From: a phage
DNA length: 64,000 nt
Sequence record: NC_101838.1
Strand: one strand, 5' to 3'
Shown piece by piece: positions 336 to 62,915 of this stretch. Numbering within the stretch: the first letter of the stretch is position 1; each line of letters opens with the position of its first letter. A program made the translations under genes and the position numbers. The notes beneath the pieces were generated by a model that saw only the letters and a list, made by a program, of their open reading frames with translations, ran no database searches and was not told the origin of the DNA.

Positions 336-701
336 ATGGAACAAATGAACGATCAAGCGTCGGTTGCGATGAACGAGCAAGAACAACCTCAAGAATTTTT
401 CTTAGGGTTAAGTAAAGATCAAGTGTCTCTTCTACTAGTGCTTTCTTCTTTCATGGGAAGACTTCAGGAGCTCACACAACAACCAGAGGCTGAACAATTA
501 TTTCAAGCTCTGCGTGAAGAAGAAAAATATCGTCGTTTGGACTATGCCTTAGGTTGGGTAGCTCAACAACGAGATATGCTGATGGCCCTCTCTGGGACCA
601 CAAGTTTTGCAATGGGGCTGTTGGCTCAAGTTCAGGACAAATTAATTCAAGCAGGGTTTGCACACACGGCAAACACTAACGAAGAACAAGGAGACAAATA
701 A
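336..701 (+). CDS. hypothetical protein (121 aa), Gln/Glu-rich
   Basis: ORF whose stop overlaps the next start (TAATG), suggesting translational coupling. Confidence 0.5.
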   Translation: MEQMNDQASVAMNEQEQPQEFFLGLSKDQVSLLLVLSSFMGRLQELTQQPEAEQLFQALREEEKYRRLDYALGWVAQQRDMLMALSGTTSFAMGLLAQVQDKLIQAGFAHTANTNEEQGDK

Positions 702-1927
702 TGAGCGTTATTCAACAATTCGCTAACCCGATGAATCCGCGTGAAACTGTTTTACTGGCTCACGGCATGATTAAACGTGTCAGCATCAAGCCTATCAAAG
801 GTGCTGATCCTACAACAGGTATTAAAACCACTGTGTGGCAAGGTAAGAAAATTGAATCCAGCCACACCATCTCTTTACTGATTTCTGAACTGGATTCCTC
901 TGATAACCTGCTTCAAGGTGGTGAAGAAGTTTGGATCAGCATGGGTGATAAGCTGCTTAAACCTGGTCATCAAGACTCTGTCTCTGTTAAAATTGATGAC
1001 AAGTGGGAAACCGTAACGCCGGGATGGATCGTAAATATCCCTTTGAAGGCAAACGAGCATAACGGTAAGACCTATTACAAAGGCTCACTGGCTAAGATGG
1101 TCAAGCTGGGTGCAGGAGAGGCTCCAGCAGCGACTCAGCAGCAAAAACAGCAACAAGGTGCACAATCACAAGGCCAGAAGCAGAAACCTCAGCAGAATGC
1201 CAATCAGGACGTTTTACGCATCTATGGCGATGTGACTCAGATTGTTGGCAACGTGGTTACTGTTAATGACCACAAGATTGGCGAAGGTGCTATGGTTGTA
1301 ACTGATGAGCAGCTTAAAGACCTGGTGGTAGGTGGTCGTGTTGCAGCCATTGTTGACAAAGACACCGGAAACATTATCAGTGGTTTCAAAGCCTATCCCC
1401 CTAAGGCAGAGAACGGCACTCAAGGCTCCGGTGGCAAGCGTAAATCCTCTTACGACCCTATCGGTGTGGAAACGGGGCATAGCATCAATGCGTTGCAGAT
1501 CATCCTGGATCGCGGGTTTAAGGTAGACGACCCACTGGGCGTGGCTAAAACACTGCACGTAGTCACCATTGAGCTTAAGAAAGAGTATGCTCAAGCCACC
1601 AACCGAACTGAAGATGAAGTAGGTGCCAGTGTCGGTAATGCGGTGTTGAACGCTTGTCGCCGTATTGACAAGAAAACGAAAGTTGATGATTTTGCAGCGG
1701 CAATTACTGCAGAAGCAAAAGATGTCTTGACTAATCTGGCTGAACCGTTGTACGATTGGATCAAGAACGGTGCTGGGTCAACTGACTATCAAGAACCCCA
1801 GGCTGCCAAACAGGAAGCAGCTCCACAGCAAAACACTGTAGACGCTCCTCCTGTAAATGATGAGGAAGATGACCCAATGGATCAGAATCCAGCACAGTAC
1901 ACCTTTGATGATGACATCCCTTTTTAA
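701..1927 (+). CDS. putative ssDNA-binding / SSB-interactome protein with canonical SSB C-terminal tail (408 aa)
   Basis: C-terminus ...PMDQNPAQYTFDDDIPF matches the E. coli SSB acidic tip (DDDIPF); Gln-rich linker (QQQKQQQGAQSQGQKQKPQQ) between two domains; N-terminal region not recognisably the canonical SSB OB-fold. Confidence 0.6.
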   Translation: MSVIQQFANPMNPRETVLLAHGMIKRVSIKPIKGADPTTGIKTTVWQGKKIESSHTISLLISELDSSDNLLQGGEEVWISMGDKLLKPGHQDSVSVKIDDKWETVTPGWIVNIPLKANEHNGKTYYKGSLAKMVKLGAGEAPAATQQQKQQQGAQSQGQKQKPQQNANQDVLRIYGDVTQIVGNVVTVNDHKIGEGAMVVTDEQLKDLVVGGRVAAIVDKDTGNIISGFKAYPPKAENGTQGSGGKRKSSYDPIGVETGHSINALQIILDRGFKVDDPLGVAKTLHVVTIELKKEYAQATNRTEDEVGASVGNAVLNACRRIDKKTKVDDFAAAITAEAKDVLTNLAEPLYDWIKNGAGSTDYQEPQAAKQEAAPQQNTVDAPPVNDEEDDPMDQNPAQYTFDDDIPF

Positions 1928-1942
1928 CATCTAGTTAACATA

Positions 1943-1970
1943 GCCCTGCCCGAAAGGGTGGGGCATTTTT
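1943..1970 (+). terminator. putative intrinsic terminator
   Basis: Imperfect GC hairpin (gccctgcccgaaagggtggggc) followed by cattttt just after the stop at 1927. Confidence 0.4.
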
Positions 1971-1989
1971 GTATAAGGAGATCTGAAAA

Positions 1990-2768: not shown

Positions 2769-3194
2769 ATGATCTATGAAATGCCAAAACTGATTCGTGA
2801 CGATGCCCAAAACGCTCACACCATTATTATGGGCAAACGCATGGATATTATTTGTCATAAAGATTTCTGGGAAGGAAGTTACTTCACAGAGTATTTTGGT
2901 AAACTGGACAATGGTCTGCTGATCCAGTTCTACACCGATGCGGAAAACAACATTCCCTGGGAGTTCGAAACTGAAGATGTCCATAAACTTTTCACCTTCC
3001 TCGGTATTAAGGTTAAGGCCAAGTTTGAAGAAGGTGAGTGCGACGATTGTGGATTTTATGAGGTAACAGATTTCTACCTTCCTAGCGGTAAGAACCTTTA
3101 CTATGAAAGCCACTTCGGTAACTCCAATATGCCACAGTGCTGGACTGAGTTTTTTGAAATTGCGGAAGAGGAGCTGGCTTACCGTGATTATTGA
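2769..3194 (+). CDS. hypothetical protein (141 aa)
   Basis: ORF preceded by caggag; stop overlaps the probable GTG start of the next gene. Confidence 0.5.
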   Translation: MIYEMPKLIRDDAQNAHTIIMGKRMDIICHKDFWEGSYFTEYFGKLDNGLLIQFYTDAENNIPWEFETEDVHKLFTFLGIKVKAKFEEGECDDCGFYEVTDFYLPSGKNLYYESHFGNSNMPQCWTEFFEIAEEELAYRDY

Positions 3195-3642
3195 TACTGT
3201 AGAGGGAGATTTAATCTCCCTTTTTAAGAGCGGTGCTGGTCACCTGATCCACGGTTGTAACTGCTTCCACACAATGGGCAAGGGTATAGCAAAACAGATT
3301 GCCCGTGAGTTTCCTCAAGCACTGTCAGCCGACAAAGAGACTAGATACGGTTGCCTAAGTAAACTGGGTGCGTTCTCCCGATGGGAGCACTTATCTCCGG
3401 TAGGTATTGTCTACGGAATCAATCTATATACCCAGTTCTACCCAGGACCTAATGCTGAGTATTTCTCAATCCTGAAAGGCTTTGAGCTAGTCAATGAAGT
3501 ATTCAGCGGATCGACTTTACCATTCTACATCCCTAAGATCGGGTGCGGCATAGGCGGTTTGAAGTGGGAACACGTAGAGGACGTTATTAACCTTGCCACT
3601 TTCGACATAGATATTGTCGTGGTGGAGTACAAAAAGTGTTGA
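3184..3642 (+). CDS. macrodomain protein, TARG1/OARD1-like (O-acyl-ADP-ribose deacylase / ADP-ribosyl hydrolase family)
   Basis: Motifs GAGHLIHGCNCFHTMGKGIAKQI and IPKIGCGIGGLKWEHV resemble the TARG1/C6orf130 macrodomain signature as recalled (AHCISEDCRMGAGIA ... MPRIGCGLDRLQWENV). Probable GTG start at 3184 with gaagaggag upstream; the track ORF starts at an upstream ATG (3103) inside the previous gene. Confidence 0.6.
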   Translation: MIIDTVEGDLISLFKSGAGHLIHGCNCFHTMGKGIAKQIAREFPQALSADKETRYGCLSKLGAFSRWEHLSPVGIVYGINLYTQFYPGPNAEYFSILKGFELVNEVFSGSTLPFYIPKIGCGIGGLKWEHVEDVINLATFDIDIVVVEYKKC

Positions 3643-7925: not shown

Positions 7926-8045
7926 ATGAGCACTACACGCCAGCACACAAAGGTAACCATCATCGTTTGCATCATTGGGTACATCCTGGCGCAAATGTTG
8001 ATGGGTAGCGCCAACGGTGTCGCAAAATTTTTCTTAAACTTTTAA
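7926..8045 (+). CDS. small hydrophobic peptide (39 aa)
   Basis: Strong SD (aaaaggagg) before ATG; hydrophobic core IIVCIIGYILAQMLMG; below track cutoff. Confidence 0.35.
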   Translation: MSTTRQHTKVTIIVCIIGYILAQMLMGSANGVAKFFLNF

Positions 8046-8073
8046 TTGACAAGCTAACTTAAATCGATATAAT
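8046..8073 (+). promoter_or_regulatory. sigma70-like promoter (TTGACA-16-TATAAT)
   Basis: Perfect consensus hexamers upstream of the ORF at 8125. Confidence 0.6.
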
Positions 8074-8124
8074 AAGCACATAAACGGGAAAACTTCCCAG
8101 AACACACAAAAGGAGAAAAACACC

Positions 8125-8466
8125 ATGACTACTATGACCGCCTCAGAAAAAGCTATGCAGATCGCTGAACTGAAAAAACAGATCGCAGACCTTGAGAATA
8201 AGATCGATAACTTTGAAATCGACGAGGACAAGTACGACGAAAACTATGATGAATGGTTAGACGAGATCTACGGCGAAATTATGATCGGAAACATTTCTTT
8301 TCTTCCGTCGCGTATCCTCAAGGAGCTAGATCCTATCGCTTACCGCTGCGGATTTAGCGACTACATCGACAGCCTGGATATTGAGGACGATGAAGAATAC
8401 CAGGAATTACAGACAGAGTTAGAAGAAGCAAAAGAAGAGCTTGCGGAGCTGGAAGAAAACGAGTAA
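8125..8466 (+). CDS. hypothetical acidic coiled-coil protein (113 aa)
   Basis: ORF with aaaaggagaaaaac leader; highly acidic, heptad-like N-terminus. Confidence 0.55.
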   Translation: MTTMTASEKAMQIAELKKQIADLENKIDNFEIDEDKYDENYDEWLDEIYGEIMIGNISFLPSRILKELDPIAYRCGFSDYIDSLDIEDDEEYQELQTELEEAKEELAELEENE

Positions 8467-8513
8467 GCTTATTTTTAGATGGCCTTGACACCAGGGCCAT
8501 CAATAAAGTAAAC
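8467..8513 (+). promoter_or_regulatory. repeated intergenic cassette: promoter -35 embedded in a stem-loop (copy 2)
   Basis: Identical to the 7847 copy over about 45 nt. Confidence 0.5.
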
Positions 8514-8555
8514 TTTATACTGTTAACACTGAACTAATGCATAGGAGTTAAAACC

Positions 8556-8801
8556 ATGGCAGCACTAATCACCAAATATTATGCCCCTACCAACACCAAA
8601 AGCGCCCGTATCATGGTAAAAGGCTTCGGACGTAAAAAGGTGTACACCTGGGATTATGCCTTAGACATGGAAGACAACTACACCAACGCAATGACCGATT
8701 TTATTAATGAACTAAATAAGCAGATCTTGACAAGTTATAAAGTGACCGATATTGCTTATATAGGTGAAGGCGGGATCTGTTTTGTAGGCATTGTGAAATA
8801 G
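8556..8801 (+). CDS. hypothetical protein (81 aa)
   Basis: ORF preceded by taggagttaaaacc. Confidence 0.55.
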   Translation: MAALITKYYAPTNTKSARIMVKGFGRKKVYTWDYALDMEDNYTNAMTDFINELNKQILTSYKVTDIAYIGEGGICFVGIVK

Positions 8802-35240: not shown

Positions 35241-36173
35241 TCATTTACCACAAATCTTCTTGTATACCTCTTCTACCGTGTCAAACACTTCAGGCCTGTA
35301 GTAGAAAAACTCAGTGCTACCGTCAAATTTTACAGGAAAGTTTATTTTATACTTGCTCAAGGCCTTATGCACAGATTTTTCTAAATCTACCATGTTTTGA
35401 GTTGATCCGCTCCATGTTTTTACTACGTGAAGAGTGTGGACACCTGCGCCAGATTTACGAGCACTGTTAAGCACCTCATTTTTCCTCCTGTGCATTTTAA
35501 CGCATACACCGATTTTCATAAGTGTTGGCACTTCTAAGTCATCAACCATAATGTAGAGTTTACCGTACTCATGAGATAAGAATCCATTTTGTGCGCATTT
35601 ACAGCAGCCACGACCACTTTTTAGGTTATTAGGTTTAGCAGACCACTTATACCCACAAATTTTGCACCTACATTGCACTTTTGTGTTATCATTGGCAATT
35701 TTCTCTAATATTTCTATGTCTGGGTTGGCTTTGTGGATAATTGCAGCGTGCTCCTTATGGGTTAACGCTTGACTTTGCCCACGTCTTAAGTCATAGCACT
35801 CTGGGCAGCCGTTTCTTTGGTATAAGTGGTTTTCAGGGTATTGTTCAAACACACCGTGTTCAGGGCAAACAATTTTTACAGGCGTTCTCATGTTCGCATA
35901 TTTGACTAATGAGTAATCGTACTTGTCCCCATGAACAGCCATAGCCTCTTTTATGAACTCTTCAGTGTTCTTTTTCGCTGACCCACCACACCTTGGACAA
36001 CCATGATTCTTGAAAGCATGTGCCACAGGGGTTTGCCAGAACTCACCGTGCTCAGGACAAATTATACACACAGGTGTCTTGTTGTTTTTATACTCCACTT
36101 TGAAGTAATCATATTTGTCACCATGTATAGTCTGAGCTTTTTCTATAAACTCTTCGGTTGTTAGTCTTCTCAT
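35241..36173 (-). CDS. T5orf172 (GIY-YIG-like) domain protein with three N-terminal zinc-ribbon repeats; homing-endonuclease-like
   Basis: Three repeats of FIEKA..IHGDKYDY..V.Y.N..TPV.I.CPEHG.F.Q.P..H...GCP.C; C-terminal KIGVCVKMHRRKNEV...DGSTEFF matches the T5orf172 domain pattern. Confidence 0.6.
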   Translation of the reverse strand: MRRLTTEEFIEKAQTIHGDKYDYFKVEYKNNKTPVCIICPEHGEFWQTPVAHAFKNHGCPRCGGSAKKNTEEFIKEAMAVHGDKYDYSLVKYANMRTPVKIVCPEHGVFEQYPENHLYQRNGCPECYDLRRGQSQALTHKEHAAIIHKANPDIEILEKIANDNTKVQCRCKICGYKWSAKPNNLKSGRGCCKCAQNGFLSHEYGKLYIMVDDLEVPTLMKIGVCVKMHRRKNEVLNSARKSGAGVHTLHVVKTWSGSTQNMVDLEKSVHKALSKYKINFPVKFDGSTEFFYYRPEVFDTVEEVYKKICGK

Positions 36174-62102: not shown

Positions 62103-62177
62103 GCCCTGTTAGCTTAGTGGATAAAGCAGCGGCCTTCTAAGCCGTTGACACTGGTTCGAGTCCAGTACGGGGTGCCA
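62103..62177 (+). tRNA. tRNA-Arg (anticodon UCU)
   Basis: Manual cloverleaf fold: 7-bp acceptor, D-arm agtggata, anticodon loop cuUCUaa, T-loop ttcgagt, encoded CCA. Confidence 0.85.
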
Positions 62178-62181
62178 AATT

Positions 62182-62268
62182 GGGGAGTTATCCCGTAGAG
62201 GTAGCGGTGTAGACTGTAAATCTATTGTCATTGCGACTCGGGTGGTTCGACTCCACCACTCCCCACCA
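62182..62268 (+). tRNA. tRNA-Tyr (anticodon GUA)
   Basis: Perfect 7-bp acceptor (ggggagt/actcccc), anticodon loop cuGUAaa, long variable arm, T-loop ttcgact, encoded CCA. Confidence 0.8.
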
Positions 62269-62382
62269 AATTTATATTTTTAGATGCATAAATAATACAG
62301 ATAATGGCATTGATATTTATCGTCGTTTATACTAGTCACTAACTGCTCGAAAATCAGTGTCATTATCAGTATTATTTATAAA

Positions 62383-62473
62383 GGAGGGTAGGGAGCAATG
62401 GTGCTCAAGCGGTCTTGAAAACCGTCCCGTTGAGGATGACTCGATGATGGTTCGATTCCATTACTCTCCGCCA
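62383..62473 (+). tRNA. tRNA-Ser (anticodon UGA)
   Basis: Acceptor ggagggt/actctcc, anticodon loop cuUGAaa, long variable arm, T-loop ttcgatt, encoded CCA. Confidence 0.8.
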
Positions 62474-62571
62474 CATTGTTGACCTTGTAATTAAGCGAAA
62501 GTCGGAAGCAGAACCGGATTATCAAATGTTACAGTCGTCATCGCCGACTAGCAACATGGTCAACATACTGA

Positions 62572-62670
62572 GCTAGGTAAGCCCTTTGGCAAGGGCGAGG
62601 ATTTTTAATCCTGAAAATAGACGAGGTAGTCGTTGAATACATAGGTGGTTCGATTCCATCACCTAGCACC
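62572..62670 (+). ncRNA. aberrant tRNA-like element (about 97 nt) lacking a canonical anticodon arm
   Basis: Good acceptor (gctaggt/acctagc), D-arm and T-arm (ggtgg-ttcgatt-ccatc), but the region between holds two 5-bp/5-nt-loop hairpins instead of a 7-nt anticodon loop. Confidence 0.35.
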
Positions 62671-62675
62671 TTTTT

Positions 62676-62751
62676 GCTGATGTAGCACAATCGGTAGTGC
62701 AATTGATTTGTAATCAATAGGTTGTAGGTTCAAGTCCTGCCATCAGCACCA
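62676..62751 (+). tRNA. tRNA-Thr (anticodon UGU)
   Basis: Acceptor gctgatg/catcagc, anticodon stem attga/tcaat with loop uuUGUaa, encoded CCA. Confidence 0.8.
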
Positions 62752-62752
62752 A

Positions 62753-62827
62753 GGCCCTGTAGCTGGAAGGTTCAAGCAAGCGACTCATAATCGCCAGACG
62801 GTGGTTCAATTCCACCCAGGGCCACCA
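62753..62827 (+). tRNA. tRNA with CAU anticodon (Met or lysidine-Ile)
   Basis: Acceptor ggccctg/cagggcc, anticodon loop cuCAUaa, T-loop ttcaatt, encoded CCA. Confidence 0.75.
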
Positions 62828-62838
62828 AATAGTAAATA

Positions 62839-62915
62839 CTCCGCGTAGCTCAGCTTGGTAGAGCGCCTGATTTGGGATCAGGAGGTCGAGTGTTCGAATC
62901 ACTCCGTGGAGACCA
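62839..62915 (+). tRNA. tRNA-Pro (anticodon UGG)
   Basis: Acceptor ctccgcg/cgtggag, canonical D-arm agctcagcttggtagagc, anticodon loop uuUGGga, T-loop ttcgaat, encoded CCA. Confidence 0.85.

What the first reader, a model, noticed from the sequence alone, without database searches (positions are those of the whole stretch)
701..1927. Large early protein ending in the exact host SSB C-terminal tip (DDDIPF)
The last six residues reproduce the E. coli SSB tail that recruits the SSB interactome (ExoI, RecQ, PriA, Pol III chi and others), preceded by an acidic stretch and a Gln-rich flexible linker. The 408-aa body does not look like the canonical SSB OB-fold, so it may be a divergent phage SSB or a mimic that hijacks or titrates host SSB partners.
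Basis: partly seen in the sequence, partly recalled or inferred. Interest (0 to 1): 0.6.

Follow-up and report, generated by a model that had tools for sequence, protein, structure and literature searches.

The report
Non-canonical phage SSB with host tip
This rV5-like coliphage gene most likely encodes the phage's own single-stranded-DNA-binding protein, of an unannotated family that carries the same C-terminal docking peptide as E. coli SSB; a 2026 preprint has already described its near-identical ortholog this way, as the trigger of the DRT10 defence system.

Summary
Window 701-1927 (+) is a 408-aa ORF ending ...QYTFDDDIPF*, sharing its last 7 residues with E. coli SSB. About 4e-6 such ORFs are expected by chance.

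The window is a Vequintavirus (rV5-like myophage). No Pfam, NCBIfam or PDB sequence match exists; PHROG 4477 is 'unknown function'. AlphaFold2 predicts five parts:
- a Gln-rich linker;
- a small OB-like barrel;
- a conserved 4-helix bundle;
- a disordered acidic tail.

The family has 246 representatives at 50% identity. Most are short forms (OB, bundle, tail). Of the near-full-length ones, 152 of 185 end in acidic-[ILV]P[FW], and some share 12 terminal residues with E. coli SSB. In four phage lineages the gene lies downstream of the replicative helicase and DNA polymerase. I found no other SSB in the genome.

Best reading: a non-canonical phage SSB whose tip docks SSB-binding proteins. It is not new. 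bioRxiv 10.64898/2026.04.29.721553 describes Bas52_0087, which differs at 3 tail residues, as SSB-like with an FDDDIPF tip and as the DRT10 trigger. ssDNA binding and tip partners remain untested.

Side finding: about a third of Vequintavirus genomes carry an endonuclease cassette after the Phe codon, which adds 15 residues to the tip.

The parts
336..701 (+). Upstream 121-aa ORF (PHROG 7310, unknown function), apparently co-transcribed and translationally coupled (TAATG overlap). It is not conserved next to family members in other phage lineages.
   Evidence: ESCO9 has a different upstream PHROG
689..693 (+). Shine-Dalgarno AGGAG, 7 nt before the ATG at 701
   Evidence: read directly from the sequence
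701..1927 (+). CDS of the 408-aa SSB-like protein (PHROG 4477). It differs from Bas52_0087 / QXV84166.1 at 3 residues (99.3% identity).
701..1117 (+). aa 1-139: predicted OB-fold domain, the presumed ssDNA-binding module. Family-conserved aromatics H55, W78, W102, Y126 and basic residues K97, K123.
1118..1207 (+). aa 140-169: disordered Gln-rich linker
   Evidence: pLDDT 25-35; sequence
1208..1408 (+). aa 170-236: small five-stranded barrel (OB/S1-like). Present in only about 29% of family members, so it is a lineage-specific insertion.
   Evidence: Foldseek hits of 64-76 alignment columns to IF1, proteasome Rpt OB and RPA14, probability 0.87-0.99; occupancy
1451..1768 (+). aa 251-356: four-helix bundle, the best-conserved globular part (G312 invariant; G259 and G308 above 90%; D252, G255 about 81%; H260, N263 about 75-78%). 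It holds both DRT10 escape positions, D252 and Y351. Presumed self-association domain.
   Evidence: preprint
1769..1894 (+). aa 357-398: disordered acidic P/Q/A-rich linker
   Evidence: pLDDT below 50; net charge of the tail -12
1895..1924 (+). aa 399-408, QYTFDDDIPF: SSB C-terminal tip. The last 7 residues are identical to E. coli SSB.
   Evidence: family conservation P407 98%, F408 95%
1943..1974 (+). Intrinsic-terminator-like hairpin (9-bp stem, 7 GC pairs) with a T-run, 16 nt after the stop. Annotated as a terminator in phage HdK5.

Best explanation
The gene encodes the phage's own single-stranded-DNA-binding protein, a member of a large, sequence-orphan phage family (PHROG 4477). The family core is an N-terminal OB fold, a flexible linker, a conserved four-helix bundle and a disordered acidic tail ending in the bacterial SSB C-terminal tip. 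Vequintaviruses and some relatives have a second small OB-like barrel inserted between the OB fold and the bundle.

Proposed mechanism:
1. The OB fold, and possibly the mini-barrel, coat ssDNA at phage replication and recombination intermediates (inferred from fold, conserved aromatic and basic residues, and gene position).
2. The helical bundle mediates self-association or cooperative binding (inferred; the DRT10 escape substitutions D252V and Y351C lie in it).
3. The free ...FDDDIPF-COOH tip docks into the pockets that normally accept E. coli SSB-Ct. Candidates are host proteins (ExoI/SbcB, RecQ, PriA, Pol III chi, DnaG, RecO and others) and/or the phage's own T7-like replisome (Pol A, gp4-like primase-helicase, PIF1 helicase). 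This is inferred from 7-residue identity with the host tip (up to 12 residues in relatives) and from precedents in T7 gp2.5 and HK620 SSB.
4. The protein is required for efficient activation of the DRT10 (UG17) reverse-transcriptase defence during infection. This was shown genetically for the ortholog in the preprint.
For: Sequence and chance.

Family: 246 cluster representatives at E<=1e-3. Of 185 near-full-length members, 152 end in [ILVMAST]P[FW], 44 end in DDDIPF and 12 end in MDFDDDIPF. The shared suffix with E. coli SSB reaches 12 residues. The only PDB sequence hit of the family profile is the E. coli SSB tail, residues 154-178 (E 0.64, not significant).

Context: the gene is on the same strand as primase, replicative helicase and Pol A, about 3.2 kb downstream, in phage HdK5. 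Short homologs lie within about 1-1.7 kb downstream of helicase plus polymerase in three other lineages, and in two of these an exonuclease gene follows them.

No other SSB: the rV5 paper names none. No Pfam SSB family was found in window ORFs of 95 aa or more or in the replication-region hypothetical proteins. None is annotated in the rest of HdK5.

Independent literature: Bas52_0087 (3 tail differences) is described as SSB-like with two OB folds and an FDDDIPF tip. DRT10 escape mutants map to it, and SbcB dosage modulates the defence. A few GenBank records already label short family members as SSB.
Confidence: 0.75

Rival explanations
1. The tip serves only phage-internal contacts, as in T7 gp2.5. 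It would recruit the phage's own Pol A, gp4-like primase-helicase, PIF1 helicase or exonuclease, and its identity with the host tip would reflect a common ancestral or convergent solution, not host hijacking.
For: The phage has a T7-type replication set: Pol A, gp4d-like helicase, primase and PIF1. Family members sit between polymerase and exonuclease genes. The HK620 SSB tail NDYPPF works with the phage's own Sak4. From my own knowledge, the acidic Phe-ending tail of T7 gp2.5 binds T7 gp5 and gp4 (Kong & Richardson 1998, also cited within).
Against: Identity extends to 12 residues of E. coli SSB in enterobacterial members (EPPMDFDDDIPF), beyond what a generic acidic-aromatic tail needs. The preprint links the protein genetically to a pathway controlled by host ExoI, a classical SSB-Ct client. 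The two roles are not mutually exclusive.
Confidence: 0.3
2. It is a decoy that titrates or redirects the host SSB interactome. The protein would not be the phage's general SSB; its main job would be to present many SSB-Ct tips that sequester ExoI, RecQ, PriA and similar proteins away from host or phage DNA.
For: It carries the exact host tip. [quoted passage not shown] DRT10, whose threshold is set by SbcB, senses it.
Against: It has a confident OB fold and sits in the replication-gene cluster in four phage lineages. No other SSB candidate was found in the genome. Expressing Bas52_0087 alone did not affect host viability. Many natural alleles cap the tip with 15 residues.
Confidence: 0.1
3. 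It is a specialised recombination or restart mediator, not a general SSB. The OB-plus-helical-domain layout resembles RecO, RPA32 or Stn1, so the protein could load or anneal DNA at specific intermediates.
Against: The RecO alignments cover only about 87 residues, i.e. the OB fold. There is no Pfam RecO, ERF or RecT signal in 121 members. RecO binds the SSB tip and does not carry it. A family-wide SSB-type tail is the hallmark of the hub protein itself.
Confidence: 0.08

Closest known systems
Bas52_0087 (QXV84166.1) of Escherichia phage RudolfGeigy/Bas52, the DRT10 (UG17) trigger described in bioRxiv 10.64898/2026.04.29.721553
   Same: Same gene at the same locus, 408 aa, only 3 substitutions, all in the disordered tail (Y363H, A369T, T401S). 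D252 and Y351 are identical. The preprint reports an SSB-like AF2/Phold prediction with two OB folds, a disordered C-terminus and an FDDDIPF tip.
   Different: Essentially nothing differs. The preprint gives no biochemistry, no family survey and no account of the helical bundle as a separate conserved domain. Those points are added here.
Bacterial SSB (E. coli SSB; Pfam PF00436, TIGR00621) and the phage and plasmid SSBs of that type
   Same: OB-fold DNA-binding domain (predicted), a low-complexity linker, and an acidic tail ending in DDDIPF. The last 7 residues are identical.
   Different: No detectable sequence homology in the OB domain. It has an extra conserved 4-helix bundle and, in this lineage, an extra mini-barrel. 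The monomer is 408 aa against 178 aa. The oligomerisation mode is unknown and probably not the OB-mediated tetramer.
T7 gp2.5-type phage SSBs (Pfam DUF2815/PF10991; PDB 4klk, 4jg2)
   Same: A phage SSB that works with a Pol A plus gp4-type helicase-primase replisome, and an acidic tail ending in Phe that mediates partner binding (my knowledge; context).
   Different: Only weak Foldseek similarity (E 0.075-0.24) and no sequence similarity. The tip is the bacterial IPF type and not the gp2.5 type.
HK620 SSB (distant SSB homolog that stimulates Sak4; PMC5928155)
   Same: A divergent phage SSB whose last six residues are required for functional coupling to a partner.
   Different: The tip differs (NDYPPF), it is a small protein, and its partner is a phage annealase. 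There is no helical bundle.
RPA32 / Stn1 / RecO architecture (OB fold plus a separate interaction domain)
   Different: Those proteins lack an SSB-Ct tip, and there is no sequence relationship. The resemblance is architectural only.

Membership tests
PHROG 4477 (phage protein family, function unknown) | Full-length match to the family profile | tested here: met
   E 7.9e-174, residues 1-408 against profile 1-393 of 393. Short homologs match the same PHROG in two stretches.
Bas52_0087-type DRT10 trigger | Orthology with Bas52_0087 (same locus, near-identical sequence, D252 and Y351 present) | tested here: met
   3 differences in 408 aa, with the same neighbouring genes.
Bas52_0087-type DRT10 trigger | Required for DRT10 activation during infection | not testable with these tools
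   Shown genetically for Bas52 in the preprint; not tested for this phage.
Bacterial-type SSB (PF00436 / TIGR00621) | Sequence match to the SSB OB-domain model | tested here: not met
   No Pfam hit at E<=1. 0 of 121 family members hit PF00436. No NCBIfam hit. hhalign probability is at most 0.3% against the E. coli SSB OB domain, with a shallow target profile.
Bacterial-type SSB (PF00436 / TIGR00621) | OB-fold nucleic-acid-binding domain | tested here: met
Bacterial-type SSB (PF00436 / TIGR00621) | Disordered linker plus acidic C-terminal tip ending in D-D-D-[ILV]-P-F with a free carboxylate | tested here: met
   FDDDIPF followed directly by the stop codon. Identical to the E. coli SSB tip. Conserved across the family.
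Bacterial-type SSB (PF00436 / TIGR00621) | Preferential, cooperative ssDNA binding and homo-oligomerisation | not testable with these tools
   Needs purified protein (EMSA, SEC-MALS).
T7 gp2.5-like SSB (PF10991 / DUF2815) | Sequence or fold match to gp2.5/DUF2815 | tested here: not met
   No Pfam hit in 121 members. Foldseek against 4klk and 4jg2 gives E 0.075-0.24.
T7 gp2.5-like SSB (PF10991 / DUF2815) | Encoded with a Pol A plus gp4-type helicase-primase replication module | tested here: met
RecO-like recombination mediator | RecO sequence signature, OB fold plus helical and zinc-binding domains, binds (does not carry) SSB-Ct | tested here: not met
SSB-Ct decoy (tip without a DNA-binding role) | Tip present, no DNA-binding function, toxic or inhibitory to host SSB clients | tested here: inconclusive
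   The tip is present, but an OB fold is predicted and expression alone was not toxic in the preprint. Partner binding is untested.

The most novel reading that the evidence does not exclude
PHROG 4477 would be an unrecognised, widespread class of phage SSB (OB fold plus 4-helix bundle) that has taken over the host's SSB-Ct tip to plug phage ssDNA into the host SSB interactome, or to shield it from ExoI. The tip-coding DNA would also be a shared homing site for an endonuclease-VII-like mobile gene that moves between unrelated ssb genes. That gene would leave a 15-residue cap after the terminal Phe, which switches canonical tip docking off, possibly with consequences for defence systems such as DRT10 that sense this protein.
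Probability: 0.2. Interest if true: 0.6.

Novelty: already known. Interest (0 to 1): 0.33.

Why it matters
rV5-like phages are widely used for E. coli O157 typing and biocontrol, and their replication proteins are poorly annotated. The original genome paper lists no SSB. Assigning this gene gives the missing SSB for Vequintavirinae, Stephanstirmvirinae and many related ~135-155 kb phages of other enterobacterial hosts, and puts a function on a PHROG of unknown function with hundreds of representatives.

The protein is also the genetically defined trigger of the DRT10 reverse-transcriptase defence, whose threshold is set by ExoI, a classical SSB-tip client. Whether the tip really binds host partners therefore bears directly on how that immune system senses infection. 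The capped-tip alleles offer natural variants to test this.

None of this changes the general picture: phage SSBs with host-like tips are familiar, and this particular protein has already been flagged.

Tried and rejected
- Sequence identification failed. Pfam, NCBIfam and PDB by sequence gave nothing. A family profile against PDB matched only the E. coli SSB tail, at E 0.64.
- A search with the E. coli SSB OB domain, meant to build a diverse target profile, returned only sequences at least 93% identical. The hhalign test therefore used a shallow profile. Its negative result shows no close relationship but does not prove the absence of remote homology.
- The promoter scan was at chance level (4 found against 3.8 expected), so I make no statement on timing or promoter class.
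- I first took the 15-residue extension after IPF to be a mere by-product of the endonuclease insertion. That had to be revised when the same cap turned up without any endonuclease in ESCO9, L011, L012 and the canonical SSB of mEpX2. Alternative-frame remnants of the endonuclease N-terminus now favour a scar, but selection on the peptide is not excluded.
- The upstream 121-aa ORF was considered as a conserved partner and rejected, because other lineages have unrelated upstream genes.
- A literature search for the cap strings found nothing.

Full report
**1. Observation**

Window 701-1927 (+) is an ATG-initiated ORF of 408 codons. Its product ends ...VNDEEDDPMDQNPAQYTFDDDIPF, followed directly by TAA. 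I confirmed the E. coli SSB sequence against PDB entries 1eqq/4mz9. It ends ...SNEPPMDFDDDIPF, so the last seven residues are identical. With the amino-acid frequencies of the window's own ORFs, 3.7e-6 ORFs ending in DDDIPF are expected. The motif occurs once in the window.

The tail (aa 357-408) has net charge -12. The conspicuous Gln-rich stretch (aa 140-169) is an internal linker, not the segment just before the tip. The gene has a good Shine-Dalgarno sequence (AGGAG, 689-693). Its ATG overlaps the TAA of a 121-aa upstream ORF. A GC-rich hairpin with a T-run follows at 1943-1964. 'Early' expression was not tested.

**2. Where it comes from**

The first 6 kb are 99.9% identical to Escherichia phage pangalan and match 119 phage records at 90% identity or better, nearly all rV5-like phages (the records checked are genus Vequintavirus). 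The gene is 'hypothetical protein' in all Vequintavirus records listed. It matches PHROG 4477 ('unknown function') end to end (E 8e-174). It has no Pfam, NCBIfam or PDB sequence match.

**3. Structure**

AlphaFold2 with a 23-sequence alignment gives:
- an all-beta domain, aa 1-139 (pLDDT 80-92);
- a disordered Q-rich linker, aa 140-169;
- a small five-stranded barrel, aa 170-236;
- a short linker;
- a four-helix bundle, aa 253-355 (pLDDT about 90);
- a disordered tail from aa 363.

The pTM of 0.37 indicates domains that are independent of one another.

Foldseek against the PDB finds nothing significant. It does give high-probability local matches of 64-76 alignment columns to IF1, the proteasomal Rpt OB domain and RPA14, which fit the mini-barrel. 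It also gives weak hits to DUF2815 and to the lactococcal phage p2 SSB.

The predicted fold of the first domain is nevertheless an OB fold.

**4. The family**

A word-indexed search found 56 relatives. An exhaustive HMM search of 1.84 billion cluster representatives found 246 at E<=1e-3. Most are 260-300 aa. These short forms lack the mini-barrel, which is present in only about 29% of 121 aligned members.

A short member (P0055, 275 aa) models at pLDDT 89.7. It consists of an OB fold (1-120), a 27-residue linker, a four-helix bundle (148-245) and a disordered tail. That is the family core.

The bundle and the tip are the best-conserved parts. G312 is invariant. G259 and G308 are above 90%, D252 and G255 about 81%, and H260 and N263 about 75-78%. 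P407 is at 98% and F408 at 95%. The OB domain keeps aromatic positions (H55, W78, W102, Y126) and basic positions (K97, K123).

Of 185 near-full-length members, 152 end in [ILVMAST]P[FW], 44 end in exactly DDDIPF and 12 end in MDFDDDIPF. The shared C-terminal suffix with E. coli SSB reaches 12 residues (EPPMDFDDDIPF) in several enterobacterial-phage members. The only PDB sequence that the family profile touches is the last 25 residues of E. coli SSB, at a non-significant E of 0.64.

None of 121 members hits any Pfam SSB family. hhalign of the N-domain or the mini-barrel against the E. coli SSB OB domain or T7 gp2.5 gives a probability below 1%. The target profiles in that test were shallow, because one search returned only near-identical SSBs.

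**5. Genomic context**

In phage HdK5 the gene is on the same strand as primase, replicative helicase, an HNH gene and DNA polymerase I, about 3.2 kb downstream. Short family members lie just downstream of the following genes in three other lineages:
- a DnaB-type helicase and Pol A, in a metagenomic contig (L003);
- a Toprim primase-helicase, a polymerase and a T7 Gp5.9-like ORF, in a 45-kb contig (L004);
- helicase, endonuclease and DNA polymerase, in the phi92-like phage ESCO9, where one group already labels the gene 'single-stranded DNA-binding protein'.

In L003 and L004 an exonuclease gene (PHROG 107) follows.

The rV5 genome paper lists ligase, Pol A, a gp4-like helicase and a PIF1 helicase, but no SSB. 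I found no Pfam SSB family among window ORFs of 95 aa or more or among the hypothetical proteins of the HdK5 replication region. None is annotated in the rest of that genome. ORFs under 95 aa and unknown SSB families are not excluded.

**6. Literature**

bioRxiv 10.64898/2026.04.29.721553 (30 April 2026) isolated escape mutants of phage Bas52 (RudolfGeigy) from the DRT10/UG17 reverse-transcriptase defence. Both substitutions, D252V and Y351C, lie in Bas52_0087 (QXV84166.1). [quoted passage not shown]

Their other results:
- Expression of the protein alone was not toxic and did not trigger DRT10.
- Extra wild-type protein enhanced restriction.
- SbcB (ExoI) overexpression weakened restriction.

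Bas52_0087 sits at the same locus as the window gene. It differs from the window protein at three tail positions only, and D252 and Y351 are identical.

The preprint reports no ssDNA-binding or partner-binding experiments.

DRT10 also restricts Stephanstirmvirinae, which carry the short form of the family. That fits a family-wide trigger, but this is my inference.

**7. Mechanism**

The best-supported reading is that this is the phage's own SSB.
- The OB fold binds ssDNA, and the mini-barrel may contribute. This is inferred.
- The bundle, where both escape substitutions map, mediates self-association. This is inferred; the preprint calls it a putative oligomerisation interface.
- The acidic tail presents a free ...DDDIPF carboxyl end to SSB-Ct-binding pockets.

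Whether the clients are host proteins, the phage's own T7-like replisome, or both is open. Twelve-residue identity with the host tail in relatives and the ExoI link favour host clients. T7 gp2.5 (my knowledge) and HK620 SSB-Sak4 show that phage-internal use of such tails is common.

A pure decoy is unlikely, given the OB fold, the gene position, the lack of toxicity and the natural capped alleles.

**8. Side finding that bears on the tip**

In the metagenomic Vequintavirus contig L002, a 642-bp cassette sits exactly after the Phe codon. It encodes a 207-aa endonuclease-VII-like protein (PHROG 1035). The SSB-like ORF reads 15 codons into it (...DDIPFAPVGLQYGKSRIHAL*), and the endonuclease ATG lies inside this extension.

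Findings on its distribution:
- The cassette occurs in 52 phage records, 40 of them at near-full length. For comparison, 119 records match the window's first 6 kb.
- The same tip-plus-cap with an overlapping endonuclease is found on an unrelated small SSB of phage morffagbaw.
- The cap occurs without any endonuclease in ESCO9, in L011 and L012, and on the canonical E. coli-type SSB of the lambdoid phage mEpX2 (...DDDIPFAPVTLPFPRHAIHAI*).
- In ESCO9 and L011, the alternative reading frame still shows remnants of the endonuclease N-terminus.
- A tblastn of tip plus cap hits 230 phage records, including Vibrio, Aeromonas, Providencia and Salmonella phage SSBs.
- No paper in the library contains these strings.

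The simplest reading is a homing endonuclease that targets the conserved tip-coding DNA of unrelated ssb genes and leaves a cap that survives its loss. A selected function for the cap is not excluded.

For the present finding this matters in two ways. It shows that mobile elements treat this gene's 3' end like that of a bona fide ssb gene. It also shows that viable phages tolerate a tip that is no longer C-terminal. The window's own allele is uncapped.

**9. Verdict**

- Novelty is 'already known', because the near-identical ortholog was described as SSB-like with this tip in a 2026 preprint. The family-level picture and the tip-targeting cassette are additions.
- Interest is moderate to low (0.33).
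- ssDNA binding, oligomerisation and tip partners remain to be shown experimentally.

Noticed in passing
Insertion point at window 1924/1925 (empty in this window); L002 4225-4866; L005 9691-9738; L009 1525-1572; L010 1525-1984; L011, L012, L013: A 642-bp cassette with an endonuclease-VII-like gene (207 aa, PHROG 1035) sits exactly after the Phe codon of the SSB tip in 40-52 phage records (119 records match this window's first 6 kb). It extends the protein by 15 residues (AP[IV]GLQYG[KR]SRI[HY]AL). The same tip-plus-cap occurs on unrelated SSBs, with or without the endonuclease (230 phage records by tblastn). It looks like a homing endonuclease that targets tip-coding DNA and leaves a cap that would block the free Phe carboxylate. 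No paper in the library holds these strings.
   Followed up: partly
window 62103-62915: A cluster of seven tRNA calls (Arg-TCT, Tyr, Ser, Thr, Met, Pro). One 99-nt call at 62572-62670 has a four-base anticodon 'atcc' and no assigned amino acid. It may be an ARAGORN artefact, a degenerate tRNA, or something odd.
   Followed up: no
Phage records MG065644, MG065655, MG065658, MG065690 and others: Sixteen to twenty-one GenBank records named 'Campylobacter phage', with host Campylobacter jejuni, are 90-99% identical to E. coli Vequintaviruses across this region. They are probably E. coli phages carried along in the isolation or mislabelled.
   Followed up: no
L004 7837-8001 (upstream of the short family member at 8001-8831): In a 45-kb T7-like metagenomic contig, a Gp5.9-like ORF (the RecBCD-inhibitor family) immediately precedes the family member, with an overlapping stop and start. 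This places a putative SSB next to an anti-nuclease function.
   Followed up: no
window 35244-36173 (-): A 310-aa ORF combines DUF723, CapR/treble-clef zinc-finger and T5orf172 domains. It is probably another free-standing homing endonuclease, located inside the nucleotide-metabolism region.
   Followed up: no
window ORF sets 1990-34687 and 35244-63734; individual coordinates not resolved: Besides ribonucleotide reductases (NrdAB, NrdDG), ThyX and ATP-dependent DNA ligase, the window encodes PhoH, a Clp-protease-like protein, a ribosome-hibernation-factor-like protein (PF02482 S30AE), a Sir2-family protein, a T4-type RNA ligase and a cyclic-phosphate-processing receiver domain. The last two suggest a tRNA or RNA repair set.
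   Followed up: no
window 3184-3642 (+): A macro-domain protein (PF01661, E 2e-6) lies 1.3 kb downstream of the SSB-like gene. It could be an ADP-ribose-processing or anti-defence function.
   Followed up: no
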